A DNA stretch of 64,000 nt from Tubiluchus corallicola (Eukaryota; Animalia; Priapulida), in NCBI GenBank assembly GCA_030141605.1, contig JAQGDQ010000039.1, positions 681,146-745,145 on the forward strand, written 5' to 3'. This document shows positions 16,629-57,484 of the stretch, in pieces. A program made the translations under genes and the position numbers. Every line of letters starts with the position of its first letter. Position 1 is the first letter of the stretch. The notes under the pieces were generated by a model. That model was not told the DNA's origin and made no database searches. It was given only the letters and a program-made list of their open reading frames with translations.

Positions 16629-19600
16629 TTAATGAGTTTTCTTGTGGAACAGCCATGCAGCAGTACCAGCCAACACCATAAACAGAGTGTTGACCATTGG
16701 TAGAGTGGACAGCAGAGAGATAGTAGAAATGGCATGGCCACTGAAAAAAATAAATAAAACATACCTGTAGCAGTAAATAATGAATAATGACAACAGTATA
16801 ATTATGACTGAGTGAAGTGCTGATTGTCACATAAAAATTCAAGAAGTGGCTACATCGTATATATGTGCCACTGTGCAAAATTTTGGGATGACTCCTAAAG
16901 TTTCGAATTAGAATTATCACTAAAAATCTGTCTTCCCTATCTGATCTGATATACATATATATATATATAAAATATAGAAGCACTAAGTAAGATTTCATTA
17001 AGATAACGAGTGCTTTTGAAGTATGATATCATCACCGGTATCTTGGAATTGCGATGTCACACTAGAAACTCTGGACTTCGTTCAACTATCCCTTAAATTT
17101 AATTACGATCGGCTGTGAAATTATACACTTCAACTTTGTGATCCAACAATCTTTTTTATTTTATTATTTTCTCTTCTTAATTTTTGCAACTTTTAACTAT
17201 TGCAAATTTGTCTCACACCACAGCAGCAGAGTAGTGCTTGTTGTAAAACATAAATGTAAGCTGTACACAATATATGAACATTAACAAGCTGTTAACGCAC
17301 AAAGTGAAAGTTCCTGTATATTCCTGTAAAATTTGTAAATATTTAAGTGCATATAGAGCTGCTTAAGTCCCATAATTCACATACTGATGTTGTTTATTAA
17401 TGACCATTTAATCTCGAGCAGTGAAAATGACTGTCTAATGGTCCACTACAACTGTAACACAAGCCAGACAAAAACCTAATTTGGACTTCTTGATGCCAGA
17501 CTAAACTGACTCATAAACAAATAGAACACCAAGAAAACTGTTAAAATGCCTAAACGTTGCAAAAAATTAAAGTATTTTACTGTCACAGCAAGTAGCATGT
17601 TCTCTCTTTTGACGAATGTTGATATTCCAAAAATAATCCAAGAACAAAATCCTGTTGAAAAAGGGTTACAACGTTTTGAAAAAAGCTACAGTAACAAAAT
17701 ACTCATTTACTTACCTTGCACACCCATGAGCTGTCCTGGCACCAAAGATCATTAATGCACCACCAATGAGGGCGTGCACTTTACTTGGACCAGGAATTTC
17801 ACCAAAAGTACCAGAAGCTCTAGCTGACAGGAATCCACCAAGAGCAATGCCACCACAAAAGAAAATCTAGAACAATAAATGAAACAATTTACAAACAACT
17901 ATTAGATATGGATGCAACATGTGTCAAAGATTTTCATTTGCAGTGATTTCTGTAATTGCTAATTATACTAAAAATTACTTTGCTAATGATCGTGCTCCCT
18001 AGAGCATAATGAAGTGCTGACAAAGCGAATGTCATCACGAAGTCAAATGATGGAATCGTTTGTTTTTTTCTATGAGTCTATTTTGAAAAACTAGTACAGA
18101 ACGAGAAGCATTGTTCTCAAATAGGTTACTCAACTAGGTCATTTAGAATGCCATTTAATGTTGTCATGAATCCCTTTTTTCATTAATATGTTATTTAGAA
18201 TACTGTTTATCCGTTTATCCAATTTACCATAAAAACTTAGAATACAGAATGCAAATCTATTATGATGTCACAATATAAAAACTGACTAAGAACTTATTAC
18301 AGGGAACAATGAGAATGAGAACAACACCACAGTAAAATGGATGACTTTGTAGAGTTTCTTTACAAGTGAGGACAAGTGAGGAACCCAACAAATATTTAAC
18401 AAGTTTAGCTATGCCATTTTTGTGAGAAGTTTTTGGTGTGCTGCTGCAGATAACTTACTTTACCATGCGGTTTTCTATGACCTCGAAAACAAAGGCTCCA
18501 ACAACAACAATAAAATGTCAAAATATTTGCATCAGAACATATCTTGGCCAGTACTTTTTCATTACACATGATCTAGGACTCATCAGGACATATATACAAA
18601 CCTGCCACCAATTTTTCATTCCGCTACGAGTTTTTGCAAGATATGGCGATATTTTCTGCAGGGGATTGCAACAGAAGGCTTGCGAAACAATTGAACAGTA
18701 ACTTGTGCTTGCACCCACGTGTTTGCTCAAGATTTGCACAATTGGAATGTTCAGCAAACCAATCGTGACGCCTGTGAACAATCAAACAATCAAAGCTACT
18801 TTCAATTGTACTGTACATAACTATGGACAATGGTAACAAATGATGTATTACAATTTTAAAATTTATTCCCCAATCCTTGCCGTTGTACATTGCATACATA
18901 CATATATCCAGGTAACTCTTTGAATCATTAGCCTTGTTTAGCACTTCGCAAGCTGGATGCCAGTAACTCAGCAGCAGCAATGCCTAATTGCCTACTGAAC
19001 AAAGACGGATATAAATGGCAAAACTGGAAATTATCTAATTCTCAAAGACAATCCTCTAAGATGAGACACACACACACGGGTGGCAAAGGTGTCTTAACAA
19101 CATCTAGAAATATAGATCCTCCAAGAGTGAAGTAAATAGTTGCAGCTGTAAGTAGCAGCAGCAAATAGTACTACGAGCATTATGCCAAGTGACTATGCCA
19201 CTGCTTATCCATTACTTTATTGATTATACTCAGTGTTTCTTAACTTAAGCCAGTGGTTACCCATCTATTTACGATCAGTCTTGCTGTTGCTTAGCTTAGA
19301 TCTCTCTACGTCTACGCATATTATGACCACTCAGCTATTCTCCTGTGTACACTAATATTCCTGTGTAAGTTTAATAATTGCATATTGGTGACATGTCTTC
19401 AACAAACTCAGCCTAGCTTATAAATGCTATACTGTCCTTTCCAACTCCAACTCTCCAATAGTAGGGAAGGGTGGCTCATTACATTTATCTTCACATTGCT
19501 TAAGCTGATCAATAATTATTTTTGATCAGGTAAAAAGCATTAAACTGGTACTGTACGATTCGTTCACATTTGCTGCAAAGACTGTAGTTGGGTTTACACA

Positions 19601-22600
19601 AAATTTTATAGGCACTATTATCGAAACAACTGAAACTATACAAGTTGCAAACACAACATAGACAATATTGACAATATCTTTCTCCATCCTATCAGATATC
19701 CATTCCCTCAAAAAGCCTAAAGGGTACTAATATAGCATACCTCAGATCATTTTATTCATGGTAGACTTCTATGAATTATTTGCAACAAATTAACAATAAC
19801 ATAAAAATAAAACGTAGCAGCAATTCTTAACCAGATATAAATTATGGTATTTCATTAATCAATAGTAACAGTTGTTGGGAAAAAAGGTAACATCTTTTAC
19901 AAGGTTGTTTTTCACTTAACTTGAAGCCAAATAACTGAAGAAGCTACACTGAAAATTAAACTCTATCTACAACTAGGAGTAAATTGTCTTTCATTGAGCA
20001 ATAATAAACATTATATAATCATAACTGAATAGTGAATGAAAGTAAATAGTAAGCAAAAGGTTACCTGCCAGCCAAGGTGCACAGGCTTGCTGACTGAGCC
20101 AGTTATCAGCTACCGTTTCCACAACCTAAGAGAACAAAAAACATTTTATTAAAAGCCATTTACAGTAAATAATTCGGAGAAGTTATATTAAGAAACTATG
20201 TGAATTAAAAAAGGCTGATGTGCATTAATCATACTCAGCATTGTTTATGCTGTGTCATTTTTATGGCAGCATTACAAGCTGTCAAGCTCTACTGATGAAC
20301 AGGACAAATCCCCACTCATTTCCCCCATGTGGACAATCCCCAGTGGCTTCTTGTTACATCAAAAAGTAGTAATTGTGAAATACTTTTTTGAAAATTTAAA
20401 TTATTAAAATAAATGTTAGCTATTATATTTAGCTAATATGTGTAGTAGCCAAAAATGATACACAGAATAACTATTTCAAATTAGTTAGCCAACATAAGGA
20501 AAGCAATACACTGCAAGGATTATATAACATGGGAAAAGAGAGACGGTTTGCTATTATGTTCGTTATAAGTTATTACAGACATGGATTGTCAATACTAGTA
20601 GTTGTTATGGATTTAGATGTATAAGTTTAGCAAAATCTGGAATCATGTTTGCTGTGGCCTCAGTCTCGAATGTTTTAAAAAATTGTAGAGACACTTGGAA
20701 CAACAAACCACAGGTTGAATCATTCAACCTGTAATAATTTAAAAGAGACAATCTTCATCTGTGGTTACCACACTTTGCTGCCATTCCAGAGTTTAAGGGT
20801 TCGAATTCTGCAAGCATCAAGGTTTTTTTAGCCATGTTCGAACCCTAGGACTCTTTGGTCACTTTCCTAAGTTTCCTCAGCCTTAATTTAATTCACGTAC
20901 TGTGGGAAGAAAGACGACTGAGTGACAGGCTAACCAACTTTCCCCCTCCATCTATTTTAACACATCCAGGCATACGTTATTCTTACTTTTCTTTGTCATC
21001 ATATTTCAATGATTTTAGTGAGACATCAATAATAATAATATAAAATAAGATACTAATAAGATGAGATATTAATAAGATGTCAATGCTGCTTAGAAAATGT
21101 ACGAAAATCGTGTTTATACGTTTATACTATTTGCAAAGACTAGGGGTGAGCATTAAGCGTTTGAGTTTGAACATCTGAATCAAATTCGAATGAGTTTTTT
21201 TTAGTTTGAATTCGATTGGAACCTAAAATTACAGATTCGAGTAATTCAGCACTTTAACCACATACGACCATTATCATTAAAACATTTGAAACATCATGCA
21301 ATTAGCATAATTTAGCTCCAATTTTTGTGCACAATTTTTAAGCAAATTATTGACCAAAATCGAGCATTGCTTTGTAAGACAGCTTTTCACTGGTGGTTTG
21401 AAAACTTGTTCGAAAACAGTAAAAATCACCTCGAATTCAAAATACTGAAACTCAGTTCGATTTGAATTCGAAAATCACAAATTCGATTCGATTTGATACG
21501 CTTTCTGTTAGAAAATGCTCACCCCTAGCAATGACCACCAAATTTAAGATAGAGTAAAATTGTTAGAGATAGGCAAAACAAGTCACCTTAAGCAGTGCTA
21601 ATGCGAATTAATGTGTAGTGTGTTAAGATGAAAAGTATGGCCACTGACAACTGCAACAATTGATAAACCATAGCCTCTGTTATTGGTCTCTTTTCATTTT
21701 TTCGTTGTAATATAGATCTGACTTAGATCATTCATTCAGTCTTGTTTACCTTATAATATAAATTACCTCTTCCTTCCAAGGGAAAAACTTCTCAAGTAGC
21801 CAAATGTCCCCAACAAGAACAAGAGCTATCGGTGGAGCTAAGAAAAAATAGGGTGTTGAGAACATCGCCTGAAGCCTAAAAATAAAAAAATATAAATAAA
21901 TATGAATAAACAATTGCATTTTAATAGTAACTACCAAATAAAATTGGCATATTTTACAAAAAACTCATGAGGTAACTACAGAACGCTAAAGAATATTCCG
22001 TCTTAATAGAAATTGTCTTAGAAAGACAGTATGAAAGAAGTAAGAACATAGACACGACTTATTAACTTTCACAAATTATTTTCCCACAAAACATGCGTAT
22101 CATAAAACATAGTAAAACTAAGTACACTAATTTAATCAAAATGATGAAAGAACGCCATTATGGGGATTTAGGCAATTTTTACTTAAAGAAGAGCCAAAAT
22201 AAAGACTGTTGCTTTTGTGGAATAAGAATGACAGGTTAATTTTTTACGAAACTGACTGACATCTAAGGCATTTACACAAAGTAAGTAAATTCTGTTTGCA
22301 ATGTCCATAACAACTGCCGTAGGAACTTTCTTATAAACAGGAACTTAGTCAGCTAAAACTTAGCCAACAAGCATGGTTACAATAGTTAAAAAACAAACAT
22401 TGTTTTATACGTTTGTTGATGATAGTCATCGGGAATGTAGGATTCAAACAGCAAGGCTATTCACGCACGAATGAAGCAGCAGTACGCAAGTCTTGCATAC
22501 TCGGCTATATTCAAACATGGCATAAAATTCTTATCTGGAACACTAATGGCGCATTCAGACTAGCGAGTTTTCGGTCGCGAGTTTTTTTATGTGACAGGAA

Positions 22601-25600
22601 ACTCGCCAGTGTGAACTGCTTTGAGAGTTACTGTCGGCAACATATTCAAAACTCTCTGACAGTTGCTGCAAGTTGATTAAGTGTCTAGTGTGAATGCCTC
22701 ATTGAGTTACTCTTGACACTTCTCGTAGCGATTAGAGAAGTGAGTGTCAGCTTGTGCTTACTGTCAGAGAATAACTGGTAGCAAGTTTTGCTCTCTAGTC
22801 TGAACACATTTGCAAGTTACTTGGTGAGAAAACTCGCTAGTCCGAACGAGTTGTAAGCAGCATAAGGCCAGAAGGAAAACAACAATGTGCTTTTACAAGA
22901 ATTCTCATCGGGACAGTTTCAGAACAAACATGATTGTAGTGGAATTCAATTTCAAAACAAGCCAACACAAACGACACTACTTAGCTCAAATGTTTCAAGA
23001 GTTTCATTTCTTGAAATGCAACTTGAAGCAGGAAATTTGTAGGCAATTTGAAAAATGCTACAAAAAAGATACATTCTTGGGGAAGAAGGGGGAGGACTTG
23101 GAAAAAAGTTTCAGCTAACTTGCCTCTACGAGTGCTAAGCCAACTTAGCTTACGTGTATCTAAGTCAAATAAGTCAACAAGTATGTAAAAAGATATGTGT
23201 GATTACAAATATTACGTGTATCTTTCAGGTAACATCAGTCCTTTAGGTGCCGTAAGCGAAACTACAAATGGTTCCAATAACCCATATGTTAGAGCACCGA
23301 TGTATCCACCCAGTAAAGTATATGCTAGAAACAAAAAACAAAAAGGTGAAAATTTTTTTACCATAAACAGCAGCTATACACAACTGCTATTGAACTTTTG
23401 CTATTGTTTACCTAAGAATTTAAACAGTGCATCAAGTGAGTGCACGGCTCTGATATACAAGTTTGCTTAAGTTTTTCTCCTTTATGCATTGGACACTTTT
23501 GACAGATTTGACCATAACAGCCAAAAATTAAACCAGATACAAAACTTGCCAAGTAAGTGTTTAAAGCTTCTATAAGGATATGTAAAAGCAATCAAACACA
23601 AAATGTGTTAAAAGATTGAGTTAATAAGTTGATTATTTCATGCAACCAAAATTTATAAATAACTAGCATGATTAGAACAATAAAGTGACTGTGTAACTGC
23701 ATAAAAATCTTGAAATTTTATGTTTTATGTGTAGACGCTAAAGAAAAAACAATTTTTACCGATTTCGTGGAGCACCATTCTCGTACATTTGGCTTAATGG
23801 CTTTAAAATTTCTCATGTGAAAATGTATGGTGCAAAAATTACCATTCATTCTAGTTCTAAAAAGTGACGAGAAGCTGATGTAATGAGTTTTCAAACATCC
23901 CCCTTTGAACTGCTGGCATAACAATGACAGTACATCTGCACTTTTGACTTTTGCACCGCAAATCAATAAGCTGGGTCGGAGTGGTAGTGATTACCTTCAA
24001 GCTGTGGTAATATTTGCTAAAAAAATCTATTTTATTCACTGGGGTTGTGTTGAATACAACAAAAAATAACCATTCTAGTTCATTTAAAGAACTTGCAATA
24101 AGTTTACTTCAAGCTATGTAATTGTGGCTTACTATATCACGAGTAAAATATATTCAAGACAGGTGCAGGGCGAGTCAAGAAGGTGGCTCCGTTTGAGAAA
24201 GAGCATAATTTCATTATCCTAGAGGCCTCAAAAGGTCATAATCAGGCCCTGGCCTTTACAGCTTCAGTTAAGGCTCAAGCAAACTAACTTAATGACTGTA
24301 CAAGCATTTTTAAATAGCCATGAAAAACAGATCGGCGCTACAAAACTCTCTAACTTTTTATTTTTTAACTAACAAGGAACTGTAAAAACTTCACATAACC
24401 ACCATAGCACACACGCAACTTTAGTATAACACACTAAATAGGGTAACATCTGTATGCTCAATACACCAGCATGTAACAGGGTACTTATCTAAATTGTACT
24501 CTGCAAAGCACTTGTTGAATTGATACTCTGCAAGTAACTAATGAGAAAATCTGTATTAAATTCTGCAAACAAATAGAAAATTGAGGTCTGATTAAATCAG
24601 AAGATAAATATTCTAATCTATAACAAAACCGTCATCGTATAGGTGCTTTTACGTTCTAACATGGCACGTTCCACCTGTTGATGCCAGTCCACTCCACTGC
24701 TTAAGCCCGCTGCATCATCCTTCAAATTGCAAGGTGTTTGTTAAATCTTTTTGCAGTATATCTATATATGTCAGTAACTACTGACCTTAACAGAGGCTCT
24801 TGAGGTAGTCTTAGGGCATGACCAATCCAATGCAACCTTCTTATTTGTATTTGTTTACTACAAGGATTTTTCTTCACCACATCATATAGATCATCATTGG
24901 ATATTCTGACAGGCCATTTAATATCTAACAATTTTCTATAGAGACATATTTGAAAAGTGTCAATTTCCTTCTGCTGTTTAACTTTTAACTGGTGATTAGA
25001 TGAATTGTTGACCAGTGACCACAGCTAAAACGCTGTGTGACTAGAAATACAAAGCATGCTTATTTCTTTTTGGCTATGAAACAACATAGAAGTGACCAGA
25101 TCTATTCTTTTTGTGGTGGTATGCATGTAACATAGATTTTACCAAGTCACATGTAAATGCCTTGTTGTCTGCCATGGCAGCAGATTAATTTGTAAACAAC
25201 AGCTTCTCGGAAAATAAATTAACTTTATTTGCTAAACCGCTTAATGAATTTTAATTTATTTTGCTTAATTTATTTTTATTTCCACTTTAAATTCACATTT
25301 TTTTCTCATACTCACTGTTACATGGATGGTTTAATTTTATACAACTTAAAACAATAACCTGATATAAACATAAATTTGAAGACTAATTAGATTAGTATTT
25401 TTTTAACCAAGACTACAAACTTAAAATCAGAATTTGGGCATGTCTAACAAACAAAATCAGTAGTGCAGACTGTGTTTAATATGCAGAGATGCTAGCTTTT
25501 CTTCAACATTTAAAAGATACAAATGTTTCAGATAACTGTGAAACCTCAGTTATTATTAAGATAAAATTGATGAAGTTGCTAAGTGCTACAAAAGTACTTA

Positions 25601-28600
25601 TTCAAACTGAGAAAATGGTGAAATCGTAGGTGGCTAGAGGCATAAAAAATATAGTGAGTGTAGTCACCATATTCTAGATTACTGATTTAAAACATCTCAG
25701 GAATTGTGAACAGTAACAGCTACCCAGCTAAAGTGGCATGAGCTTGTAATTTACTCTTTTTTGCTAATGTAACAAATCGTATGCTTTTTACACAACTGCC
25801 ATAAACATTCACAATATACCAAAATATATGCGGTAGCATTGTATACTGTTTCATGACACTCTAATAAAACTGTGTTAATGAACTATAATCTGAATCACGT
25901 TCTGGAATGACAACTTAAAACATTTGAAACTGATCAAAATGATGAATTTTTAGCTATTTAAAAAACACTACAAACTAAATTGATTTACATGATAATCATA
26001 AAAAATAATATCTGTTACTAAGATATTGTCAAGGTAAATAATTACATACTGCTTCTCAGTTAAAAAGCTGTAAATAACAAATTAGGGATCATTACACTAG
26101 TAGTCGCTTTGAGAGAAGAACAATGTAACAGTTATCACACTACATATACACTATATATAGTAACAGATCTTACTATATATCATTCCATTGCCTTAGTTGG
26201 AACTTTACCAACACCTTGGTTAATCCTGCTTATGCCTTGACTTCCTGGAAGTTGATTATGTAATATTATCATTAACCCAAAAACATCAGCAAACACAACT
26301 ATGAGTTGGTGAAATTAAATTTAACTACTTATGGCATATAAAATCGATATAACAAAATCAGTACCCAGCGTCAAGAACAAGTAAGAAGTACATACTCGTG
26401 AAAACAAATTTATTATTTCTATTTCATGATTCATGACCAGCATGAACAAACAGATGTAAAATTCCTACATATGCAAGATGAACGTTGATTTTCTAAGTTG
26501 CAATAAAATTTTCAAGTTATGTGCAAGTTTTGCACCAGCTTTCCTTAAAATCATAAAGCATTTATTTATCAACCTCTCAACCCGCCTGCCATGAGATCCT
26601 ACCAAGACCTATGGTTTACTGGCATGACAAACTACACAAAAATTTACATACACACTACATGTAACAAATTAAAACATTTTACGAAACTATATTACATAAT
26701 CAATTATGTATTAATATTACATAACTCTGTGGTATAACACCAAGACCTATGGTTTACTGGCATGACAAACTACACAAAAATTTACATACACACTACATGT
26801 AACAAATTAAAACATTTTACGAAACTATATTACATAATCAATTATGTATTAATATTACATAACTCTGTGGTATAACGTAAAAATAAGCTCTGCTTTTAGT
26901 CGTCTGTTTTTTTAATTCTAAAACAATAAACGATACAAAAATCCAATTACCACAGTAGCAATGAGTGGAATGATGTAAGTCCAGAGTCTTGACAAATAGC
27001 ATAAACTCAGGTCAGCAACCAAATGACATAAAACATGTTTTTTGTCTGCTTCACAGGCTACCAAACCTTTTGAAAGAATCTGTTTCATCTCTTCCATGTC
27101 TGTTTCATCTTCAGGGACCTTTTCTTCAATGATACGCAGCGCCTTGTAAAAGATGGCTTTCACAGCATGTATTGTTGTGGCATCAATCATCATGCGAACA
27201 GCTTCGCCTTTCCGAATTTTTACGACACTCCTCAAAACAGCTGGGTTGTTCTAACACCTCTCTAACGTGGCAACAGCCATTACTTGTGGTATTGCGCAAA
27301 AATTAAAGACGCTTTGATTATGAAGTCATGACAGATACAACGTCACATCAGGAACATGTTCTAGGGCATTAGCAATTAACTCATTTAAGCACGGAACTCC
27401 AAGGGATTCGTTACTGGCAAAATTTCCGAGATCGTCTGCGTACTTCTGCCAACATTCTTTAGGCCAAAATTTCCATCCATCGTTGTGGTCTTCAAGGTAG
27501 TCACGGATTATGTTAGTTTTTTGCAAAAATAAGCCCATGGAATTCGCTAGTTTGTCATCCTTGCCAACAATCTCGTCTTCAAGCTTGGAAGCAGAGAACA
27601 ATCTAGACAATCCTATGCCAACAAGACCTGCGACGTAGTGACAATATTGGTCCCATTCTGAAAATGTGTCTATGTCCTTTTCAAGAAAAACCGTCATTCC
27701 TGCCCCCATTTTCGCACAAATGTCTGATATCACATCCTGATACATTACGTCCAGAGAGCGAAATTCTTCGGAAACATCAGTAAACTGTTCCAGAACTATA
27801 CCATTTTTATCATTACTGTCCCAATAACACCATTCTGGGTCGTACAGATGTTGATAGAATGTTTTCAGCATTGGTATTTTCTCCTCGGCCGGGATCGTCA
27901 TGTCGTCTTCAATGGTATCCAGCGCACGCAAAACAATGTAGAATATACACACTGCGTGTCTTAGCTCTCCCTCCAAAGCTCGTATAACGGCGGCAAAACT
28001 TCGACTTGTTTTGTTTAGCAAATTGTAACAAGTACGAGCTGAATCCGTCATGTCATCTTCGTCTACTTTACTCGAAATAGACACAATTTTGCCACTCTTA
28101 AACTGGAGAAGAGCAAAGACCTCTTCCGGATGACTGAGAGACCGCAGGAAATCCATGGCTGTTGCACAAGTGTAAACCTTTGTGACTTGTACTAACCTGC
28201 AGTGATTAATTTTTTGAATAATAATTAAACGGCAACATATCCTTGCAATAACAATACTAACATAAAGCAACGCCGACAGTAAATGTTTAGTGTTGTAACA
28301 CAGCGTGTCTACCGATGCATGGTGAAAGAACTGTACCAGGAACACTATTGGCTGTTTACAAACTCCACCAGTGCATTCAGCGAATGAGCGATTCCGAATA
28401 TCAGCTGATCATGTTATGACAGCTAACTAGCTGTGCGCAGAAACTGATGCAGACTGAGGAATGCTGAAGATCGAGTTTATAAAATTGATAGAATTTTCTC
28501 TCAACGCAGTTTGAGTTTTTAACGAATTGTATTCATTCAGTGAATCATGAATTAATTGTTATTAAACAGTTATGATTTTTTTTCGGTTTATGTACTGTAT

Positions 28601-31600
28601 TTGACATTTATATTATATTACTTTGCCAATGTACATTGTATGTATTTGTGAAAATAAAATTGAATTGAATTGAATAGTTAACGATAGTGTAAAATTGATT
28701 TTTGTGTTTTCGTCAGTTTCTGCATAATATCATGTATGCAACAAGTCTACAACTACAACCTGACTTGTGTACTGGAACAAATCATTCAAAAATTTAGAGC
28801 ACATTCGCCGCTGGACAGGGCTAATTTTCACCAGACCACATAAGTCAGCGCATTTTACAAAGTTATCGAGCAAGAAAATGTAAGAGTTATAATGCGAAAT
28901 CGGCAGCAGAAACATACATCACGTCTACTATACTTGCAACAATTACAATCAAACGTGGCCTTGTACATATGATACAACGATGCTAACCTAATGACGGAAA
29001 TCTAAATTGGGTTGAATCTCCATAAGTGCTTAGTGGATATCCAAGAAGTGACGTCTAACATAATGTCAATCATTTTCGTTGACTGCCCAATCAGCGTGCA
29101 AGTTATTTCACACCCTTGCAGAGTTTACTTAACACTGAAACGTTCGGGACATTTAGCTACAGTTGCCTCTAATACTGTCACGAAAAATGCTCAACTTTTC
29201 GTTAGTCAGCGGGAAAAATATTGACCTGACTCTAGACTTTATTATTGTCAATTGAAATTGCAAGTGAATTAGTAGAAATATATAGTCTAGTTTCGTTTAT
29301 AGGTAGAAATGCACACAGCTTACGCCTATATAAATTGCAAGTGAATTAGTGGAAATATATAGTCTAGTTTCGTTTATAGGTAGAAATGCATACCGCTTAC
29401 GTCTATAAGTTGCTGAGTAAACCATTTCGCAATCAAGAAAATACACAGTTTAGTTTATGGCTTTGCATGTTAGACAAAAACAACTATTTCATTAACTTTA
29501 AATTAGGACAAAACAAAAAGTTTTCTTTTCTGGCCAGGTTTTATTAACCTTAATGAGATCTTCAGAGTCAAAATTAATTCAAAAGTGGTCAAAACTTATA
29601 TTATACATCAATGTAATGTTAGTTAATTTTACACTATTTTTCTGGTTATAATCGGGGTTAAAGGCGCCATTGGGAATTATGTGACTCGGGCATTCAATAT
29701 AAAGGTCGTCAATGGAATTGAACTATTAAATTTATTCCATTTCCGTAGCCTGACAAACGGAAAAATACAAAAACTTAATAAATCTTGCAGACAAGCACAT
29801 GATTAATTAATATAGGAAAATACATCGCAGACTTAAAGGCAAGAGAGACCTGCAAGGCAAACTGACTTAGTTTCTTTATTATACTCATGTCTCTATATTT
29901 TGTAGTGCTTTGAAAGTTCATGTCTACATTCTGTTTAAATTGAAAAGTCATTTTTTGGCTACTTGAAGTGTTAATTTCGAGTAAGAAATAGCTGCTGCTC
30001 TGCAAATTTGTGCTTATGAAAAAGTGCAATCAGTTTAATCTGCTGATTAAACATTAGTTGTGACTGTCATGATGTTTAGTTTAGTTTAGTTTAGCTTAGA
30101 CAGTTGTTGACCTGCGCGAGCTGTTGTCCCAAATGTAGCTGAGCTTGCTTACGTTACAGCGGGGGCAGAGCGATATTTGACGTCAATTGTTTTGCAGGCT
30201 ACAATGCTCTGTCAAGTTAGAATAAAACACAAATCAAATGCTAAATAGTTCTTTATTGATCAGGCTTAGACAATGTTATTATTACACTATATATTTTGAA
30301 AATGTGGTATATGGGCAATTTTGTGTATATTTTTGTACTTTTATGTACACAAATCAATAAGTGATTATTTTCTTAAGCTGATGAAAAATGATACAACTTG
30401 GTAATTATCCAAGAAACTGCCACATTTCTTGCACTTTTCTTGATTTTTCTTTTTTATCCATTTTCCTCTTTTTCCATCTAATTGTTTTTTCATTTCTTAT
30501 ATATATATATAGATATAGATATACATAATTGCATTTTCAAAATATATAGGGTAACAATAACATTTATATGCATTTTCATAATGACAAATGCAATAATAAC
30601 ACAAATGGTTAGTATTTAGTGGCTATTTAGAACGTTAATAAGAATAAAAGTACGTTTATCAGCTGATATACACGTTAAGCTAGTCTGTTAGTTAATTAAC
30701 AGCGTATTTAGTAAAAGCATGATATCATTGTTTGAGAAGCTTGGTATTACATGTGACTCACAAGACAAAATTTTATGCCATTATCCCAACATTGCGTTAA
30801 CTTATATAAGTGCAAGTGCCTTTAGCATTTAAACCTTCAGCATATCCCTCTGACACTTGACTCTCAGCCTCATATTACTCATCATAAAATTTCCACCCCT
30901 CCCACATTGTATTCTATAAACTTTTTCCTTTGTGTTTCATCCCAGATTACTTTATCCTTCTGATTCTGAATTTTTACTCCAGTTACATTTCAAGTTTTCA
31001 ATTCTCTGATATACTGCATGTCTTTCTATACTTGAGTTACAATTTCTCAAAACAACACAAAAAATTTATGCCCTTTTTAAAATTCTACTATGATTATAAT
31101 GTAATGTCGTATAATATAACTATTTTAACTGTAAAACAAGAGATTTGGAGATTTAGTGCACACAACTGGTTATTTGCTTTTACTTGTATTCATTTGAGCA
31201 TCCGCAAACATACATTCACTCACAGTATGTGCAACTATTTCCGTAATTCAACAACATAATAATGTCTGTCGACTCTCTGTTCTGGTATTTGGGCAATTAT
31301 GTGCCTATTTTTGTACTTTCATTTACACAAATCAATACGTGATTATTTTGTTAAGCTGATAAAACATGATACAACTTGGTCATTATCCAAGAACTGTCAA
31401 ATTTCTTGCACTTTTTTGATTTTTATGTATTTATCCATTTTTACTCTTTTTTTCCATCATCCCTTCCTTCAGTCCTTATGCCCAATTTTGTTTTGTTCTA
31501 TTTTATTTATTAACAGGCAAGTCTAATAAATTGCAAAAGCTAAACAGTGCCACATTGTCAAGATGCCTTATATCGCTTTTACAGGAAAACCGTTTTGCAT

Positions 31601-32726
31601 AAATCCCTAGGCAAGCCCTACTGTGCGAAAATATGTAACACTTAATTAACAACGATTAAAGCAAAGCGACTACACAATAGGTTTGCCCTATTCAGACAGG
31701 TGTTAAACGTGTTAGCTTCACGCTGGGTTAGGCAACCGGAATATTCACTAAGGTAGGTACGTGTTAATAATTTTGCTGGGTGTCCCTTAAAGTGCTGCAA
31801 GACTGCTAAAACACCATGGATGTTCACGCAAGTCAGCAGTGGGAAAACACGCAAGTAAAAATTTTTTCTGCATTTTTATCTACAGTAACTGCGCACCTGA
31901 TGATCACCCCCAGTACATAATGCAAAAGCGGAGCAGTGATCTCAGCCGCCGCAAGAGTTAGCTGGCCTTTTGTTATTAGTTAATCGTTTAGCGGTTGGTT
32001 CCAACCTCCACGGTCTTCATATAAAAGCTGTGTTAGACTACTACTATTCCATTCCCCAAGCAAGCTAATTACAAAATATAAAAAAATGAATAGCACTCTA
32101 AATATAAATATCGGAAAAGTACAGCAGTTTCTCTCCTTTAAGAAGTTTCAATTTCATTGCTGGATTTATGTAAAATATTCAACTAGCTCTCTTTTTCAAG
32201 TCACAATTAAAACTACAGTGTTTCACTTCAATTTAGCATACTGACTGATTGAGATTAGCTACTGAAAAATTTTTTTTGAGTCTGTCAGTTACTACAGCTT
32301 TTTAAATGGGCAACTAGTATAAAAAAGTTTGCTTTCCAAGTTATTTTACCATGTTTAATAGAACATTTTCGCTAACAACACGAGAGAAACAAGAAAAACA
32401 GACACCAAACACGTAATGTAAAGAGATGACATTATAATTATAGAATGTGCACTATTGTGTAGTAACTAACAAGATAGAGAACAATTTAATTTTTTTATAG
32501 AACCACAAAATGGCCTCCAGCAGACTTTCTAATCAACAGGCAAAACTGAAGTCGAATACCTGCATTATGCAAAATGCTTGATTATAACATTTATTGACTT
32601 ATCTAGTACTTAAACTAGTAACTGTTAAATATCAAGCTAAGTAGCCCAAGCTATCAGAATAATTGACAGTAGAAACAGACCCAAAATTAATTATTAATTA
32701 TAAAATAAATTATGACATGAAAAGTA

Positions 32727-32758
<32 letters not shown>

Positions 32759-35700
32759 GTTTACCTCATACAAAAATATACAGCTTACAAAAATAACAGG
32801 TTTTAGTAGAATGTGATTAAATGGGATGCTAGTAACATATCTACAGAAATTCAACTTTGTAACATTCGCGCTGATTCACAGTACTCCTGTAATTGTATTA
32901 CAATATATGATGTTGCAAGAATATACTTAGTACCAGGTATCTTAAAACATAATCTTTTCTTCATAAAACATAATTTTAAATGAGTTCTTTATCTTTAACT
33001 TCACATTTTCGTTCAGATCTACAGTACAACAACATTTTAATCGTAAATTTATTTGATTTTTATTGACATAGTAGCAAAACCTTGGAATTCTCAACGTGCT
33101 AGATTTTGCAGTGTTTCTCACAAAATTTAATTTACGGCTATCTATTAAATATTTTGCAGGTATTGTGCCACAAAAATACATTAACAATTTACGCTTTCAT
33201 TTTGTCCAAAACCGAATATTTTTCTATAAGCAGTGTTCCACTCTACCCTGATGGCATTAACTTCGTGGTTTGATATACGACTAATTTTGTATGCGTAGAG
33301 CAAAATGTTAGGTAATATGTATTGATCGTAGAAGGCTATTATGTCATTACAATTGTGGCCCATACTTGAAGGCCAGTGTCAGTGTATTGGCCTTCATATC
33401 GTTTTTAATGCTACGGCTCCCAAGTGCAGCAATGTTGGTTCTGCACACACCCCTCTCTATTGAGTACTCATTGTACATCGTGACAACTGTTTCATGAGAA
33501 ATTATAGAGACTTAGGATCGAATTTTACAGAAATGGTTATTCCTTTTTTAAATACCATCTGCGTATGTTTTTGGGAGGCGTGTTGTCTCCACCTTGTGAT
33601 TCGTCATCGTTGCCATTATGTGATTCCACTGTACATCCTGTATTACTAAAGATACAGTACCAAAGCGCTCAATGCGTTTTGTACAGTGGTTGCCTAGAAT
33701 GTCTCCTGTTAAACTGTGTGTGGTTCTAGCTACAGTGAAGCTTTCCCCATGGCTGCCGGCGACAAAAGTAGCCGTTCAAATGTAGTGTATGCTTACACCT
33801 GTGGTGTGTGCCCGGCATCTTACAATGGTTAGATGAAACGTCATCTGTGCACTAGAAGTGGGAGGCATTGCAAGGACCAGCTTCGCTCCCACCATACTGC
33901 ATGCAGAGGTGATTTGGATGGCTTTGACTTTGTACTAACATCTTGCATAGTACAAAAAATATTCAGGATCTCAAAATAACACAGGCCTTGTACATAGGTA
34001 ACACCATGCTGCACTCTATCTATTTTTGTGTTTTAAATCATTTTGACTCAATTCTATCAGGCCCTGTAATGGTCCTCGTGGATCGAGTCTCTGCATTGCT
34101 TTCAAATATTGTAGGGTTCTGTTATTGTGTTTCCCCTGGTTGTAAAAAAGTGCAAATGCAAAGAAGTTGTTTGTTTTATTTTTCTAATGCTTATTTCTGT
34201 GGTTCTTCATGTAATCTTAGACTAATGGTTTACTGTGTTGTGAACTTTTTTGATATATAAAGTAATCTCATATATAAAGTAATTTTTTACATTTCTTTTG
34301 AATTTCTTTCTGGTTATATCATTCTGACAATTTAAATTCTAGTCTTTGAACTTGTAATGATATATTGTGTGCCTTAATATTGCAATATGGAATGTACTAA
34401 TTATTTCTTTTTGGCTTGATTTATAGCATTGAAAATGACTGTTACGATCATCTGTGCATAATGAACTTATTGACTCATAAAGGCCAGGACTCTTTCATGT
34501 ATAAAACAAACGTTTTTCCTGTGCAACAAACAGTCAAATTCTTAGTCTTAACTAGCACATTTCATACGTAGTTGTTTCGTATGCTTATAGTAGCGTATAT
34601 TTTAATGTTAAGCCAAATGAAATTAGTGATGTACGATTACCGCGAGGCAAAATAAATTCTACCTTACCTTATCTTGGACTTTCAAAATGTACAGAAATTG
34701 TAAATTTTTAATTACCAACTGCCACGAAAATAGAAAATTTTTTTGATATAGTTTTCTAGGAATACCACAAACAATTAAAATGATTAGTATCTGTTCATCT
34801 AAAATTTATAGTTCTTGATATCGACCATAATAATTTTTCACTTACCAGCATTTTCTACGCCTGCTCCAAGCTGACAATAAGCAATACTGGGAGTCTGCAA
34901 ATAAACTGAAATTAGAAAGTCTAAAAATAAATACTGAGGTGAACAAGATTGTCCGATCAGAACAAACATTGGATTGTCTCTACAATCTTGAAGTAAAGTT
35001 AAGTTAGATTTTAAGTTCATAGTGACCTGCAAAACACAACAGCAACCAATAGCTTTCATTGTTTACAAACCACTGTTATCAAACATTAAAAAGTTCGTTT
35101 TTCAATCATATCAATTTCACAAACAACACTCTTGCTTGACTATAGATGACTAGATATATAGACATATATTTTATCCTACATCAAAGTTAATCTACAGTAA
35201 TAATAATGGCATCGAAATGCTCACGAATAATAGAAGCTTGAGAATGTCACAATTATCAGAAAATAAGGCACATGGCCATAATTTGCAAACTAGTTGCCAT
35301 TTGACACAACAAGATACAAAATGCAGTTTGCATGACCTGTTAGAACTTTGTTTTTTGCACGGCTTCAAGGATTTTTACCTAACGAAACAGCTTGACAAAC
35401 CAAAGACAAGAACTAATGCTAATATCTCTTCAGTGGAAGTCATTTGGTGAGACATACTAGATTAAATGATGCAAGAGAAACTTTAGTAGCAAAGGCTTTC
35501 AGTTTATTTCAAAATTAACAAAACAAACAGGAAAAGGCCCAGCAATTATAAACTTTTATTATTATGAAAATATTAATCAAAAAGCAAAACAAACAGCTTT
35601 AAAATGCATATGAATTTCCAGAGAAAAAATAGTGGAGCAAAAAAATTATATTATAAGTGCACATACCGCACCACATAGGGCCATGCCTATACCATGAATG

Positions 35701-37121
35701 GAACCCCCAACAGCACAAGCTAATGGTCCCTTGTTGTTGTTTTTGAGACCATTAAGATGGTCCTGCAACAGCTGCCGAGTTTGCGGATGCATGTCGGGAA
35801 TTAGCATCATTGCACTAAAAGACACTAAACCTAGAAGACACAAATTATAATGTAGCTTAATACTTGAGGTATAAGATGTACGTAAGATGTAATAAAAAAG
35901 TATTATAGTTGACATATATAAAAGTATTTATTTAAATGAATGGCATTGTCTGCAAATGAATGATTTTGTTACACATTACTCCACTAAAGCAAGAAAACAG
36001 CTACAGAAAATTAATAGCAATTCATTACAAAATGTATGTAAATGACAAGAAATGAGAAAAAATAAAACTACCAGGCCTGGAGCTGATTGCAATTACAATT
36101 ACAAGTTCTGCTGTAATTACAACTGCAATCCTAATTATTCTTATAAATGACAAAAACGGTAATTATAATTGTGATATAGCCTAGTAATTGATGTAATCAG
36201 TTTTTAAAGATAAAAAATTTATGCTAAAATGCTTGCATTATTTTCATTCTTTATTGAATTGACGAAAACTAGGTCTACACATTCCTCCATTCACTTTAGT
36301 GTCTATGGCAGATTAACAAATAATGGTATGAGACACTCAAAAAGTACAAACCTTTCTTTTAGTTTCAAACAAAATAAGTAATTGTAACTGTAATTGTCAC
36401 TTTCTTAAGGGTGTAATCGTAATCCTGCAGTGTTCAAACTGTGACACAATTGCAATCGTAATCTTCCTACTATAATCGGCCCCATGCTTGCCTCCCAGCG
36501 TCGTCATTATTATTAATGAAATCAAACTGAAGAATATAATAACCATTGTACATACCAGTGGCAATGGCTGACATCCAAACTTTTGACATGCAGAACTGTT
36601 CCAGGCCAAACTGCCCCTGAATGAGTCTTGGTTCAACAACTGAAATTTATTAAATACTACTTTTTTGCACAGAGCTTATTGCAAATACTCAAAGTAGTTT
36701 AAAACTTTTCTAAGTCACAGCTACTCACTTTGCTAAAAATATAAGTGGACTCTTATATAATTTTTTACACTATTCCCAGCAAGACAAAAAAGTGAAGAAT
36801 ATACACACCGGACAGCTTCATAAAAAAACTGATATTAAAACAAATCCCTCTACCTCTACTCTTTTCCAAAGCAATTCCCATCACTATTCCAGAAGCAGAT
36901 GACAATCCAAGCTTGGCTAGCGTACTGAGCACAGACCATCCTGTGCTCGACTCTGCAGACTGAGATTGACCGCTGGTCGAATTCACATACAAAAGTGGTA
37001 GACCAACTAGAAACTTTCTATTTGATCGTAACTGGTGTAGCAATGGTGCTGGATGACGTATTTTACCATTTGATGAAGCTCCATTTGAGCAAATACTACT
37101 GTGCCACTTTAACGTACTCAT
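16629..37121 (-). CDS. YeeE/YedE-family (TsuA-like) thiosulfate/sulfur-compound transporter, 10 coding exons, 425 aa
   Basis: Hand-spliced exons, all GT-AG and phase-compatible: 37121-36854, 36639-36556, 35830-35667, 34894-34846, 23324-23216, 21875-21767, 20125-20065, 18771-18602, 17866-17715, 16740-16629 (1278 nt). The product has Gly-rich TM segments and family motifs GIVMGIALEKSRVVEP..IQGQF, GGSIHGIGMALCGA-TPS..QLGAG, LLGGYIGALTYG, GASTSY, WWQ and GGALMIFGARTAHGCASGHAIS. Confidence 0.88.
18850..19740 (-). mobile_element. Highly decayed CR1-type RT fragment
   Basis: Traces DIVNIVYVVFA..(SIIVP) resembling D.VY.DF.KAFD.VP, and F..LY.SL...WHP. Confidence 0.4.
21141..21527. mobile_element. hAT-type MITE (TTCGAA-rich family)
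   Basis: TIR TAGGGGTGAGCATT...AATGCTCACCCCTA. 8-bp TSD GCAAAGAC/GCAATGAC. Confidence 0.85.
22547..22853. mobile_element. PIF/Harbinger-like palindromic MITE
   Basis: Inverted termini share TTC(A/G)GACTAGCGAGTTTTC, with TAA on both flanks and internal CTAGTNTGAA repeats. Confidence 0.65.
24640..24990 (-). mobile_element. RTE-like LINE C-terminal fragment
   Basis: LDIKWPVRISNDDLY...QIQIRRLHWIGHALRLP. Confidence 0.7.
26601..26876. repeat. Exact 138-bp tandem duplication
   Basis: 26601-26738 matches 26739-26876 by eye. Confidence 0.92.
26918..28156 (-). pseudogene. FDFT1: Squalene synthase (farnesyl-diphosphate farnesyltransferase), intronless, two in-frame premature stops
   Basis: ATG at 28156 in a strong Kozak context (GCCATGG). 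Motifs TSRSFAAVI, LRALDTIEDD, YCHYVAGLVGIGLS, MGLFLQKTNIIRDYLED, FNFCAIPQVMA, VKIRKGEA and a C-terminal TM anchor all lie in one frame over 413 codons. That frame contains TGA at 27326-27328 (codon 277, Arg in homologs) and TAG at 27251-27253 (codon 302, Tyr in homologs). It joins ORF-track entries 27326..28345 and 26918..27235. Confidence 0.92.
28340..28415 (-). promoter_or_regulatory. Candidate FDFT1 proximal promoter (CCAAT box, E-box)
   Basis: Minus-strand CAGCCAATAG at ~28345-28354, ~190 bp upstream of the ATG. Palindromic ATCAGCTGAT at 28400-28409. Motif match only. Confidence 0.3.
28575..28675 (+). repeat. LINE 3'-tail fragment, same family as 45430-45522
   Basis: Shared ctttgccaatgtacattg..gtatttgtg.aaataaaa(ttgaa)n. 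Confidence 0.65.
29255..29407. repeat. 77-bp tandem duplication
   Basis: aaattgcaagtgaattagt(a/g)gaaatatatagtctagtttcgtttataggtagaaatgca... occurs twice. Confidence 0.9.
30313..31457. repeat. Diverged ~165-bp direct repeats ~980 bp apart
   Basis: 30313-30478 and 31291-31457 align (gggcaatt.tgtg..tatttttgtacttt...ttttccatc). Confidence 0.85.
32729..33350 (-). mobile_element. Non-LTR retrotransposon 3' fragment with (AAT)n tail
   Basis: Peptides RVEWNTAYRKIFGF..NESV / LMYFCGTIPAKYLIDSRKLNF. (ATT)n at 32729-32757. Confidence 0.7.
33480..34030 (+). mobile_element. Penelope-like element remnant (GIY-YIG endonuclease)
   Basis: ~33765-33870 translates SSRSNVVYAYTCGVCPASYNG*MKRHLCTRSGRH, matching the PLE VVY-x-C-x2-C-x3-YIG-x-T-x-R-x-L-x2-R-x2-EH signature. 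Confidence 0.7.
36072..36490. mobile_element. GTAATT/AATTAC-rich MITE-like element
   Basis: Termini CAGGCCTGG / CCCATGCTTG with inverted arrays of (A/C)ATTAC and GTAAT(T/C) hexamers. No clean TSD. Confidence 0.5.
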
Positions 37122-39539: not shown

Positions 39540-42500
39540 TAGCAGAAAAAAACCAAAGTTATTAAGACTAACAGATGACTTGGATATAGACTTATATCAT
39601 AAAGTACAATTTCAGAAGTAGCAGTGTAATGATATATGTGAAGATGGCATTATTACTATTTCTATAGCAAAATTCATGGTTAGTATCACTGTAAGTTGGG
39701 GTTTAGATCATCACCACGTATTATAAGTGAGTTTTTACCATTCATATGTATATATAAGGCTTGGTGAGTTCAACTTGAGTGGAAAATAGTAGTTTAAGTT
39801 TCAGTTCTGTAAACAATTCCAAGACTAGGTATATAGAGAAATAAGCATGTTTTTGTAATTTGAGACAAAGTAATTAAGAAATTTGTTTTTTGAACTACTG
39901 AGGAACAGGGTTCCAAATTCGTGAGCCTTGGTACTTGAGCGAACGTTGAGCTTTGGGTGTATTGCATCTTTTGACACTATAAGTGTTACTTGATGCAAAG
40001 CAAGTTTGGTAGTTATGCAAAGCTGAAGGTTCATTCAATTATCCATTAAATAGTTTGGGTAGCTTATGATTCTTGAGTTTGAAAACAATTTTAGCCATTT
40101 CTAGGTTATAGATATCAGTTATTTTTAAAATTTTTAGTTGATTATAATAAGGTGTTGCATGGTCCCTGAAACCAACAAAGCAGAGAGCTTTTACAATTTT
40201 GTTTTGAGGTACAGCAACATTCTGTATTATAGTTTTGTTGGCCGATCCCCATGTAAGTATTCCGTATTGTAAGTAGGGAAAAACTAGTCCGTAATATATA
40301 AATTTCAAAGTTTGCGTATCTAGGTAGTACTGAAGTTTATGTTTTATGTGTGTACTCCAGTTGAGTTTGCTATCGATAAGAACATCCAGATATTTTATAT
40401 CATTGGACCGACTAATACTTATATTATTGATATTAATTTGGAAGTTGTCCACATCTTGATTGGGTTTTTGATTTGAAAAGAGGATAAACTTAGGTTTTTG
40501 ACAGTTTAATGTTAGTTTATTTACTTTTACCCAGGTATCAATTTTATTTAATTGTAGGTTGACAGTATTTTGAAGATTATGGATAACAGGTCCAGCCATA
40601 AATAGGTTAGCATCATCCGCAAACATCCATGTAATAAGGTTAGTACAATCAGGGAGGTCATTAATATACAATATAAATAGTAATGGTCCTAAGGTAGAGC
40701 CCGGAGGAATCCCACATGTGACTTGAGCCAATTTAGATTTTGTATCCCCAATGGCAGTAAACTGTTTGCAATTCGTAAGATAGGAAACAAAGAATTCAAG
40801 TGCATGGCCTTTTATACCATAGTGGTTAAGTTTATCGATTAGTATATTGTGTTGGACAGTATCCAGAAAAATTTCACACGTATACAATTTATTATCAACA
40901 TTTTCTAGTATTCTGTCAACTAATTCAGATGTAGCAAGAGCAGTAGAGTATTTTTTGCGAAAACTAAACGGAAAATCCGTTAGTATGTTAAATTTTGTTA
41001 AAAAAAGCTCAAAACGATTATATAGTAATTTTTCAAACTTTTTTGACATTGGGGAAAGTAATGAAATAGGTCTATAGTTATTTAATTCATTTGGTGATTC
41101 AGCTTTGTATTTTGGAACAATTTTAGCAATTTTTAGCTTATCAGGGAATACAGCTTCTGCGACTGATTTATTGAATAGATCAGTTAGCAGAGGAGAAAGT
41201 ACATGACTAATTATTTTGCAGTATTGGATTGGTATCTCATCTGGTCCTGAAGATTTATTACTATTAATGTTATTTATCTCATTAAGAATTTCCTGTTCAT
41301 GAATTTGGCAATGAAAAACATGTTTTGTATAGCGTTTTTAAGAAAGTCATTATGACTAGGGTTAGTTTTTTGGATTTTAGTAGCTAGCTTATTACCTACA
41401 GAGGCAAAGTGTTCATTGAGAGCATCACATATAATTGCCTGGTTACTTGTTTCCATTCCATTGACTTTAATTTTATTAGGTAAGATACTTTTAGTCTTTA
41501 TTGATTTTAAATATCCGACAGTTATTCATGGTTTTTCATATGTTTTGGTTTGTCGCCTAGAGTTTTAAAAGGCAAGTGCTTATTAACTAAACTACTCAGG
41601 GTGTCAAAAAATACATTAAACGCTTCATTAGTGTGTAGAGTAGAATAATCGATAGTATTAAAAACTCCGTTTAATTCACAAATAAAATTTTCTTTTACAA
41701 AATTAGCTTTATCCCTTATTACTACTTTGTGATTTTTTCGTTTAGATAAAGTCTTATTAATAATTGCAAAAATAGGTAATGATCTGCTACTTCATAAAGT
41801 ATGATACCAGGTATTATAGGGTTTACTAGATCATTAGTATATATGTGATCGATCAAAGTTTGCGATCTACTGGTGGTCCTAGTTGGTTTGGTGATTAAAG
41901 GAAAAAAGCAGTTGGCATATATCATTGCACGATAGTTAGATACAAAAGTTTTGCTTTCATGGTGTAGCAGATTTATGTTAAAATTCCCACTGATGTACGC
42001 AAGTTTACCGTACTTATTAATTGTGGCTAGAGTTTTAGCACCACCAGCATTAGTTGGAGAAGTCTCTTGCAAGAAAGTGTAACACGAAATACTACACAGG
42101 AATTGCCTGCTATCATCAAGTCTATTTTCAGAGACACCTATAAGGTCAGGCCAGGATTGAAAATTACACAATATATCCAATAAATTAGTAAAATGTTTAT
42201 TTACACTGGAAACGTTTACGTGTATAAAAGAGAAATCATTGGCACAAATTTTGTACTTGGGGTCAGACTCCATCTGATTTAATTTTACATACCTGCTGTC
42301 ATATTGAATGGTGAATTCATCTGGGTAGCACATAATAGATCAGAGTAGAGAGAGACCATATCAGTAAGATTCAGTAGTTCAGATTGGTCACCCAGTGCAT
42401 GAAAAAACTCATCCTCAGTTAGACTTTGATATGGTAGCGGGCTGTTGATACACTGCAAACAGAAAAAGGAATTGTTAGTGTTAGTTAGTAGAGCAAACTC

Positions 42501-56900: not shown

Positions 56901-57440
56901 AGCAAAGTTTTTTTGCAGCTACAGTTACTATTATCAATTACAGTCAATTAAAACTTTAAATGAGAAACTGTTAATGTTATTTTTTTTGCTTTTTGATGAA
57001 TTCTGTTGCCCGAAATGTAATGAAAACCATTTACCAACAACAACACAATAATCTCAAACTCAAAGTTTAATGCTACTTAATGCTTTATACCAAATAAATA
57101 TTTTACAAGTTAAAACTGAACTCTTTAAGCTAAGTGTAAAATCACCCAACACCTTTTTTATGTTTGCAGCCTTGCAGAATTCCATGCTTATATGTAATAT
57201 GTTGTGTAGTACATGCACATTTTGGGGTATAAACCTGCAGATTAATATTTACATAAACACCAAGATTTAGTGAGCTAGAATAGCAGAATTTCTGAGGGAA
57301 CTGCAGAAACTTTGTTAAGTGTGCCTCTTATGCTGTTCACCGGCTTACGCCATTTTTTCAAATGTGCCTGCAGCAAGATTCATTTGGTGAGAGACACAAG
57401 TGATTTAAATTTCTTTTGCATTATTAAACAAGCATTTTGC

Positions 57441-57484
<44 letters not shown>

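What the first reader, a model, noticed from the sequence alone, without database searches (positions are those of the whole stretch)
16629..37121. Intron-rich animal YeeE/YedE (TsuA-like) thiosulfate-transporter gene hidden in ten short exons
Seen in the sequence: ten GT-AG exons splice in phase to an intact 425-aa polytopic membrane protein with YeeE/YedE motifs (GIALEKSRV.EP; GARTAHGCASGH). Established: this family is characterised in prokaryotes (E. coli and Spirochaeta YeeE/TsuA thiosulfate uptake; SoxT and PmpAB in sulfur oxidisers), and I know of no functionally characterised animal member. Inference: nine spliceosomal introns and linkage to DLGAP5 and beta-TrCP rule out bacterial contamination. 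This is a domesticated animal gene (ancient inheritance with patchy loss, or old HGT) and points to an undescribed animal sulfur-oxyanion transport system.
Basis: partly seen in the sequence, partly recalled or inferred. Interest (0 to 1): 0.8.

Follow-up and report, generated by a model that had tools for sequence, protein, structure and literature searches.

The report
Animal sulfur transporter with shifted cysteine
This is a real, spliced ten-exon invertebrate gene for a membrane protein of the bacterial YeeE sulfur-transporter fold; it belongs to an old, unstudied eukaryote-wide branch that likely moves reactive sulfur rather than being a copy of the E. coli thiosulfate importer, and in this lineage one of its two key cysteines is replaced by threonine, with a nearby cysteine that may take over.

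Summary
Observation confirmed. Ten GT-AG exons on the minus strand (37121-16629) give an intact 425-aa frame. Five of nine junctions are bridged by one contig of a likely RNA run, and a 93%-identical unspliced-free relative (P0001) is colinear across all nine. It is a PF04143 protein with the YeeE fold. It is not TsuA: it misses both TsuA family cut-offs and lacks two of TsuA's three cysteines. Homologs occur in molluscs, echinoderms, hemichordates, amphioxus, Priapulus and several protist groups; RefSeq already auto-labels some 'TsuA-like'. The closest bacterial relatives found are split two-gene PmpA/PmpB-like pairs (79 of 80 loci, 68 alphaproteobacterial), fused here in reversed order. Shared intron positions and trees favour old vertical inheritance over recent transfer. 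New here: the near-invariant GxCPG cysteine (138 of 148 rows) is Thr in this gene and in Priapulus, with a Cys three residues upstream. Best reading: a cysteine-relay sulfane-sulfur transporter, substrate untested. No functional study of an animal member was found in ten searches. Interest 0.45.

The parts
36854..37121 (-). Exon 1 (ATG; ~55-aa disordered, basic N-tail; first TM helix; loop A start)
   Evidence: joint to exon 2 in X2
36556..36639 (-). Exon 2 (begins with Val90-Val91; Val91 sits at the StYeeE Cys22 position)
35667..35830 (-). Exon 3 (PmpB-like half; ends just before the GxCPG position)
   Evidence: (PF04143 E 0.025)
35673..35675 (-). Codon for Cys170, three residues upstream of the canonical site; Cys in only 5 of 123 homolog rows that keep the canonical cysteine
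34846..34894 (-). Exon 4 (49 nt); its first codon (34894-34892) is Thr173, at the StYeeE Cys91 / PmpB cysteine position
23216..23324 (-). Exon 5, after an 11.5-kb intron that holds a nested squalene synthase gene
   Evidence: joint 23324/34846 in X2
21767..21875 (-). Exon 6 (central TM helix)
20065..20125 (-). Exon 7
   Evidence: colinear with P0001
18602..18771 (-). Exon 8 (PmpA-like half, loop C)
   Evidence: colinear with P0001
17715..17866 (-). Exon 9; codon 17722-17720 is Cys387, at the StYeeE Cys293 / PmpA cysteine position
   Evidence: (PF04143 E 8.7e-7)
16629..16740 (-). Exon 10 with TAA stop
   Evidence: X2 contig on 16623-16727

Best explanation
The locus is a spliced ten-exon gene for a single-chain YeeE-fold membrane protein, a fusion of a PmpB-like and a PmpA-like half, that likely passes reactive (sulfane/polysulfide) sulfur across a membrane along a short cysteine relay, with Cys387 at the kept site and Cys170 likely standing in for the lost Cys173. 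Shown: gene structure, splicing in a relative, family, fold of a 93%-identical proxy, cysteine pattern, eukaryote-wide spread, split bacterial kin. Inferred: substrate (from the bacterial two-cysteine pair YedE1E2, which imports zero-valent sulfur and forms glutathione persulfide), hand-over to glutathione or a rhodanese instead of a YeeD/TusA partner, a role in sulfide/persulfide handling, and the cysteine hand-over. Thr173 sits at the loop position just before a short helix (residues 167-169 of P0001 in the model), so it would keep the fold but not the thiol. Which membrane it sits in is unknown.
For: PF04143 over profile 2-308 of 310, 115 bits; AlphaFold pLDDT 89.5 and top 5 of 5 Foldseek hits at E<=0.001 are StYeeE, TM 0.77 by target. 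Family consensus has exactly two relay cysteines: 138 and 143 of 148 rows; the St C22 column is F/Y/V. 79 of the 80 best bacterial loci are two-gene pairs with the same motifs, 0 fused, and they are the sister of the eukaryotic rows. PmpB = N-half with C91, PmpA = C-half with C293 (PMC11582611 passages); YedE1E2 takes up zero-valent sulfur and needs both cysteines (PMC10812762 abstract and passages). 6 of 32 bacterial loci scanned have clear sulfur-metabolism neighbours (flavocytochrome c sulfide dehydrogenase, CysNC, TauE with an SQR-like protein, MBL-rhodanese twice, further YeeE genes, 115 of 123 ORFs given); no TusA-like small ORF by motif in 80 loci. Cys170 is present in 6 of 8 rows that lack Cys173 (one splice artefact dropped) against 5 of 123 that keep it. 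Third-position-only differences (7 of 7 listed) point to purifying selection.
Against: No transport data for any eukaryotic member or for this particular bacterial pair subfamily (170-210 aa halves, longer than the ~130-aa PmpA/B). In StYeeE C91A is dead and in E. coli YeeE Ser cannot replace the cysteines (PMC7449682 passages); C-to-S kills YedE1E2 (PMC10812762), so Thr173 may mean loss of relay function. The Cys170/Thr173 pairing rests on about three independent lineages and the independent-pairs test cannot reach significance (4 pairs, median p 0.5). Most bacterial neighbourhoods (26 of 32) show no clear sulfur gene, and PmpAB of Hyphomicrobium is not thiosulfate-regulated (PMC11582611 passage).
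Confidence: 0.5

Rival explanations
1. It is a thiosulfate transporter like TsuA, used by the animal to move thiosulfate (for example to release the product of sulfide oxidation).
For: Same fold as StYeeE; the outer cysteine (C293 position) is kept; StYeeE tolerates C22A (PMC7449682 passage); RefSeq auto-labels homologs 'TsuA-like'.
Against: 33 and 21.5 bits against TsuA cut-offs of 400 and 645; C91 position is Thr; in trees the eukaryotic rows group with split pairs, not with full-length bacterial YeeE. The labels are automatic.
Confidence: 0.2
2. In this lineage the protein has lost the relay and now works as a sulfur sensor or carries another solute (for example selenium species), kept by selection for that new role.
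For: Long stem branch to the window+Priapulus pair (0.88); several other near-invariant sites changed (G175S, G395T, S403P, F111W); SoxT1B is a YeeE protein used for signalling and YedE/FdhT proteins serve selenium (PMC11582611 passages); other animal rows have degenerate motifs too.
Against: Cys387, Arg382, His391, Lys87, Lys109 and the glycine framework are kept; a spare Cys appears next to the lost one; SoxT1B itself needs all three cysteines (PMC11582611 passage).
Confidence: 0.17
3. It is a mitochondrial inner-membrane sulfur carrier, part of the SQR/ETHE1/rhodanese sulfide-oxidation pathway (pathway recalled, not tested here).
For: The N-tail has net charge +6 and no acidic residue in 45 residues, fourth of 74 tails; nearest bacteria found are mostly Alphaproteobacteria (68 of 80).
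Against: The family as a whole has no presequence: mean net charge -0.6, 10 of 93 tails pass a loose filter; Priapulus is only +3; no targeting predictor was available; weak dileucine-like enrichment points to secretory membranes instead.
Confidence: 0.09
4. The gene came into this animal lineage by a separate transfer from bacteria and then gained introns.
For: An AU test on the 72-row LG tree did not reject window clade + bacteria (p 0.558; the constrained tree scored higher).
Against: With the mixture model and 30 rows dropped the same constraint is borderline rejected (p 0.045) and the pair groups with molluscs (80/90); 8 of 14 deletion ends in homologs fall within 3 residues of this gene's introns (64 of 100,000 random sets); no fused form in 80 bacterial loci; the nested squalene synthase also groups with Priapulus.
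Confidence: 0.04

Closest known systems
YedE1E2 (Cupriavidus, Sinorhizobium) / PmpA-PmpB (Serratia): split two-cysteine YeeE/YedE pair
   Same: One relay cysteine per half in the family consensus, same two motif types; nearest bacterial kin found are such pairs.
   Different: One chain, halves in the reverse of the operon order, a central helix between them, longer halves; in this gene the PmpB-half cysteine is Thr with a Cys three residues upstream.
TsuA/YeeE of E. coli and Spirochaeta thermophila (PDB 6LEO, 8K1R)
   Same: Fold (TM 0.75-0.77 by target), half order, cysteine at the C293 position.
   Different: 19% identity; C22 and C91 positions are Val and Thr; far below TsuA cut-offs; no YeeD/TusA partner seen.
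SoxT1A/SoxT1B of sulfur oxidisers
   Same: YeeE family, sulfane-sulfur import and sensing rather than assimilation (PMC11582611 passages).
   Different: Three essential cysteines, sox gene context; no SoxT sequence was compared directly here.
Uncharacterised invertebrate RefSeq models (Priapulus LOC106806410; 'TsuA-like'/'UPF0394 YeeE-like' in Pecten, Haliotis, Amphiura, Diadema, Apostichopus, Asterias)
   Same: Same eukaryotic branch; Priapulus is 60% identical and shares Cys170/Thr173.
   Different: Most others keep the canonical GxCPG cysteine and are 30-39% identical.

Membership tests
YeeE/YedE superfamily (PF04143) | Pfam gathering score | tested here: met
   Exon 9 alone 29.2 bits against 27; P0001 115.3 bits
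YeeE/YedE superfamily (PF04143) | YeeE fold | tested here: met
   Model of the 93%-identical P0001: 5 of 5 hits at E<=0.001 are StYeeE; the window's own protein was not folded
TsuA thiosulfate transporter | NCBIfam TsuA cut-offs (NF052577, NF041049) | tested here: not met
   33.2 of 400 and 21.5 of 645 bits
TsuA thiosulfate transporter | Three relay cysteines (St C22, C91, C293) | tested here: not met
   Val91, Thr173, Cys387: one of three
TsuA thiosulfate transporter | YeeD/TsuB partner | tested here: inconclusive
   No TusA domain in P0001; no genome is held for the window
TsuA thiosulfate transporter | Thiosulfate transport | not testable with these tools
   needs assay
PmpA/PmpB (YedE1E2) type | PmpA-type half with GCxxGH cysteine | tested here: met
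   Cys387; 143 of 148 rows
PmpA/PmpB (YedE1E2) type | PmpB-type half with GxCPG cysteine | tested here: not met
   Thr173 in this gene and Priapulus; met by 138 of 148 family rows
PmpA/PmpB (YedE1E2) type | Two separate ~130-aa proteins | tested here: not met
   One 425-aa chain; the characterised PmpA/B and YedE1/E2 sequences were not aligned here, the link is by motif type and paper descriptions
PmpA/PmpB (YedE1E2) type | Zero-valent sulfur uptake | not testable with these tools
   needs assay
Mitochondrial matrix-targeted protein | N-terminal presequence | tested here: inconclusive
   Basic, acid-free tail in this protein, absent family-wide

The most novel reading that the evidence does not exclude
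Eukaryotes carry an unrecognised sulfane-sulfur transporter made once by fusing an alphaproteobacterial (possibly mitochondrion-derived) PmpB-PmpA pair, and a priapulid-type lineage rewired it: the relay cysteine moved three residues via a CxxC intermediate and the protein gained a mitochondrial address, giving sediment-dwelling animals a dedicated sulfur exit or entry for sulfide detoxification.
Probability: 0.1. Interest if true: 0.78.

Novelty: new variant of a known kind. Interest (0 to 1): 0.45.

Why it matters
How animals move persulfide/polysulfide sulfur or thiosulfate across membranes is poorly defined (recalled). A conserved, assayable YeeE-fold candidate in many marine invertebrates and protists makes that testable, and the data say the automatic 'TsuA-like' label on these genes is probably misleading. 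This gene is a natural mutant at a cysteine that is essential in every bacterial member tested, so it tests the cysteine-relay mechanism itself. The existence of animal YeeE genes is not new to databases, which limits the surprise.

Tried and rejected
Bacterial contamination: rejected (spliced joints, animal flanks). Pseudogene: rejected for the YeeE gene (open frame, third-position differences). Family-wide mitochondrial targeting: not supported. Dileucine sorting signals: three patterns tried after seeing the tails; [DE]xxxL[LIM] 8 of 91 against 4.0 shuffled (39 of 1000), PL[LIM] 9 against 2.0 (2 of 1000), YxxPhi 10 against 7.1 (143 of 1000); a lead only. A hand-entered Fisher test counted the P0056 splice artefact and is not used. 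Run search: no holder on record as RNA. Word-based homolog search found only 4 proteins; the HMMER scan was needed. No whole genome is held, so paralogs, partners and an intact second squalene synthase could not be sought. A second structural aligner gave no result. Earlier-findings look-ups were empty. Paper searches for squalene synthase + Priapulus gave 0; priapulid + sulfide + thiosulfate gave 5 listings, none opened; PMC6742746 (one mention of PF04143) was not opened.
Full report
Observation. None of 100,000 random sets of pieces of the same lengths was free of stops. Exon 9 passes the PF04143 threshold by itself. One contig of run X2, about 93% alike in exons, joins exons 1-5 at the predicted boundaries and covers both sides of intron 5; junctions 6-9 were not shown in tables that were cut. 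P0001, a 421-aa protein on a 2063-nt contig, aligns ungapped over residues 6-425 with 390 of 420 identical, which supports all nine junctions in a close relative. The seven exon differences listed for X2 are all at third codon positions. DLGAP5-like and beta-TrCP flanks are confirmed.

Family and fold. P0001 scores 115 bits over nearly the whole PF04143 profile. Its AlphaFold model (127-row alignment) has pLDDT 89.5 with a disordered first ~50 residues, and the only five Foldseek hits at E<=0.001 are S. thermophila YeeE structures. It is far below the NCBIfam TsuA cut-offs.

Spread. 1086 representatives score E<=0.001 and 124 score E<=1e-30. Of 30 clusters looked up, 15 carry an organism and all are eukaryotes: ten animal (Pecten, Haliotis, cuttlefish, five echinoderm clusters, Saccoglossus, Branchiostoma) and five others (Hartaetosiga, Sphaeroforma, Hondaea, Goniomonas, foraminifera); Priapulus caudatus (60%) and Aphanomyces came. 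The Atlas lists eukaryote-only clusters, commonest Rotifera and Ascomycota. No vertebrate or arthropod name turned up, but absence was not tested. RefSeq labels several as 'thiosulfate transporter TsuA-like' or 'UPF0394 YeeE-like'. The host is likely a priapulid or other relative of Priapulus: both this gene (100/100) and the nested squalene synthase (98, with a long-branch warning) group with it.

Origin. A scan of prokaryotic genomes (stopped at 15 of 64 parts; 545 confirmed, best 80 kept; pattern drawn from the second motif) returned two-gene pairs in 79 of 80 loci, none fused, always with the GCxxGH half upstream, 68 of 80 alphaproteobacterial. The eukaryotic protein has the halves in the opposite order, the order of full-length YeeE. 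In a 72-row LG tree the eukaryote-type rows (many unnamed) form one group (96) sister to the proteobacterial pairs, with all named animals in one group (91), but the AU test there did not reject placing the window clade with bacteria (p 0.558). After dropping 30 rows (three distant outgroups, long or oddly composed rows, near duplicates; chosen after seeing the first tree) and using the mixture model, eukaryote-type rows are 100/99, the window pair sits with Pecten and Haliotis at 80/90, animals are not one supported clade, and the same constraint is borderline rejected (p 0.045). Trees alone are thus weak. Independent support comes from introns: in the six homolog records with internal deletions of 20 or more positions, 8 of 14 ends lie within 3 residues of this gene's introns (64 of 100,000 random sets; tolerance chosen after seeing the data); five of the six were placed and lie among animals. 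The Saccoglossus model starts at intron 3, and 10 of 11 repeated segments in P0011 start at intron 7. This is indirect, but it points to an intron-bearing gene in the bilaterian ancestor. An alphaproteobacterial source is suggested, not shown, because sampling was capped.

Cysteines. StYeeE relays thiosulfate along C293, C91 and C22; C91A and C293A are dead, C22A is not (PMC7449682, passages). PmpB matches the N-half with C91 and PmpA the C-half with C293 (PMC11582611, passages). YedE1E2 imports zero-valent sulfur, forms glutathione persulfide and needs both cysteines (PMC10812762, abstract and passages). The eukaryotic branch has two: 138 of 148 rows at model position 173 and 143 of 148 at 387, while the C22 column is F/Y/V. 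This gene, P0001 and Priapulus have Thr at 173 and Cys at 170. In 132 rows, Cys170 occurs in 7 of 9 that lack Cys173 (6 of 8 once a Branchiostoma splice artefact is dropped) and 5 of 123 that keep it, the latter being CxxC forms. That suggests a shift through a CxxC state, but only about three lineages are independent and the paired test is not significant.

Mechanism. I commit to a cysteine-relay carrier of sulfane/polysulfide sulfur (0.5), ahead of a thiosulfate carrier (0.2), a degenerate sensor or other-solute carrier (0.17), a mitochondrial carrier (0.09) and a lineage-specific transfer (0.04). Substrate, direction, membrane and the role of Cys170 are all inferred. Bacterial context gives modest support: 6 of 32 loci have clear sulfur genes next door and none of 80 has a TusA-like ORF by motif.

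Prior knowledge. PMC11073785 (abstract, passages) says YeeE-like proteins exist in some eukaryotes; PMC8310684 (passages) says thiosulfate uptake in fission yeast is obscure. Ten searches of an open-access library (listings and abstract starts only, five papers opened by passage, no supplements read) showed no functional or evolutionary study of an animal member; subscription papers and supplements could hold one.

Verdict. Real gene, known superfamily, already auto-annotated in other invertebrates, functionally unstudied as far as found; mislabelled as TsuA; this copy is a variant with a displaced essential cysteine. New variant of a known kind, interest 0.45.

Noticed in passing
window 28156-26918 (-), inside intron 4: Intronless squalene synthase (PF00494 E 4e-37; 59-66% to animal enzymes) nested on the same strand, with two in-frame stops (TGA 27328-27326, TAG 27253-27251) where 35 of 36 homologs have Arg and 34 of 36 Tyr. 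Runs X1 and X2 read a sense codon at the second stop; 22 of 24 listed X2 differences are third-position, but only 2 of 6 listed X1 coding differences are, so this copy may be a recently decaying gene or allele, or an assembly error. It groups with Priapulus squalene synthase; loss of this enzyme is typical of arthropods and nematodes (recalled)..
   Followed up: partly
window 49421-51514 (+): DLGAP5/HURP-like gene with a single ORF of about 660-697 aa (GKAP domain), largely without introns.
   Followed up: partly
window 54441-63914 (+): beta-TrCP exons (D domain, F-box, WD40).
   Followed up: partly
window 40039-42339 (-): Broken LINE-type element (RVT_1 E 2.6e-17); high-copy repeats also at about 21200-21500, 22550-22830, 24100-24800 and 29000-30100.
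   Followed up: no
P0011 (911 aa, unnamed): Homolog record with one segment repeated about ten times, starting at the position of this gene's intron 7: tandem exon duplication or a mis-built model.
   Followed up: no
P0014, P0010, P0087, P0132: Other eukaryotic rows with degenerate cysteine motifs; P0014 has the same Cys170/Thr173 pattern and has also lost Cys387.
   Followed up: partly
L073, L080: Alphaproteobacterial loci where the split pair lies beside one or two full-length YeeE genes (L073 also TauE and an SQR-like fusion), implying different jobs for the two types.
   Followed up: no
window 26598-26876: Near-exact direct duplication of about 130 bp in intron 4, just downstream of the squalene synthase (seen).
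   Followed up: no
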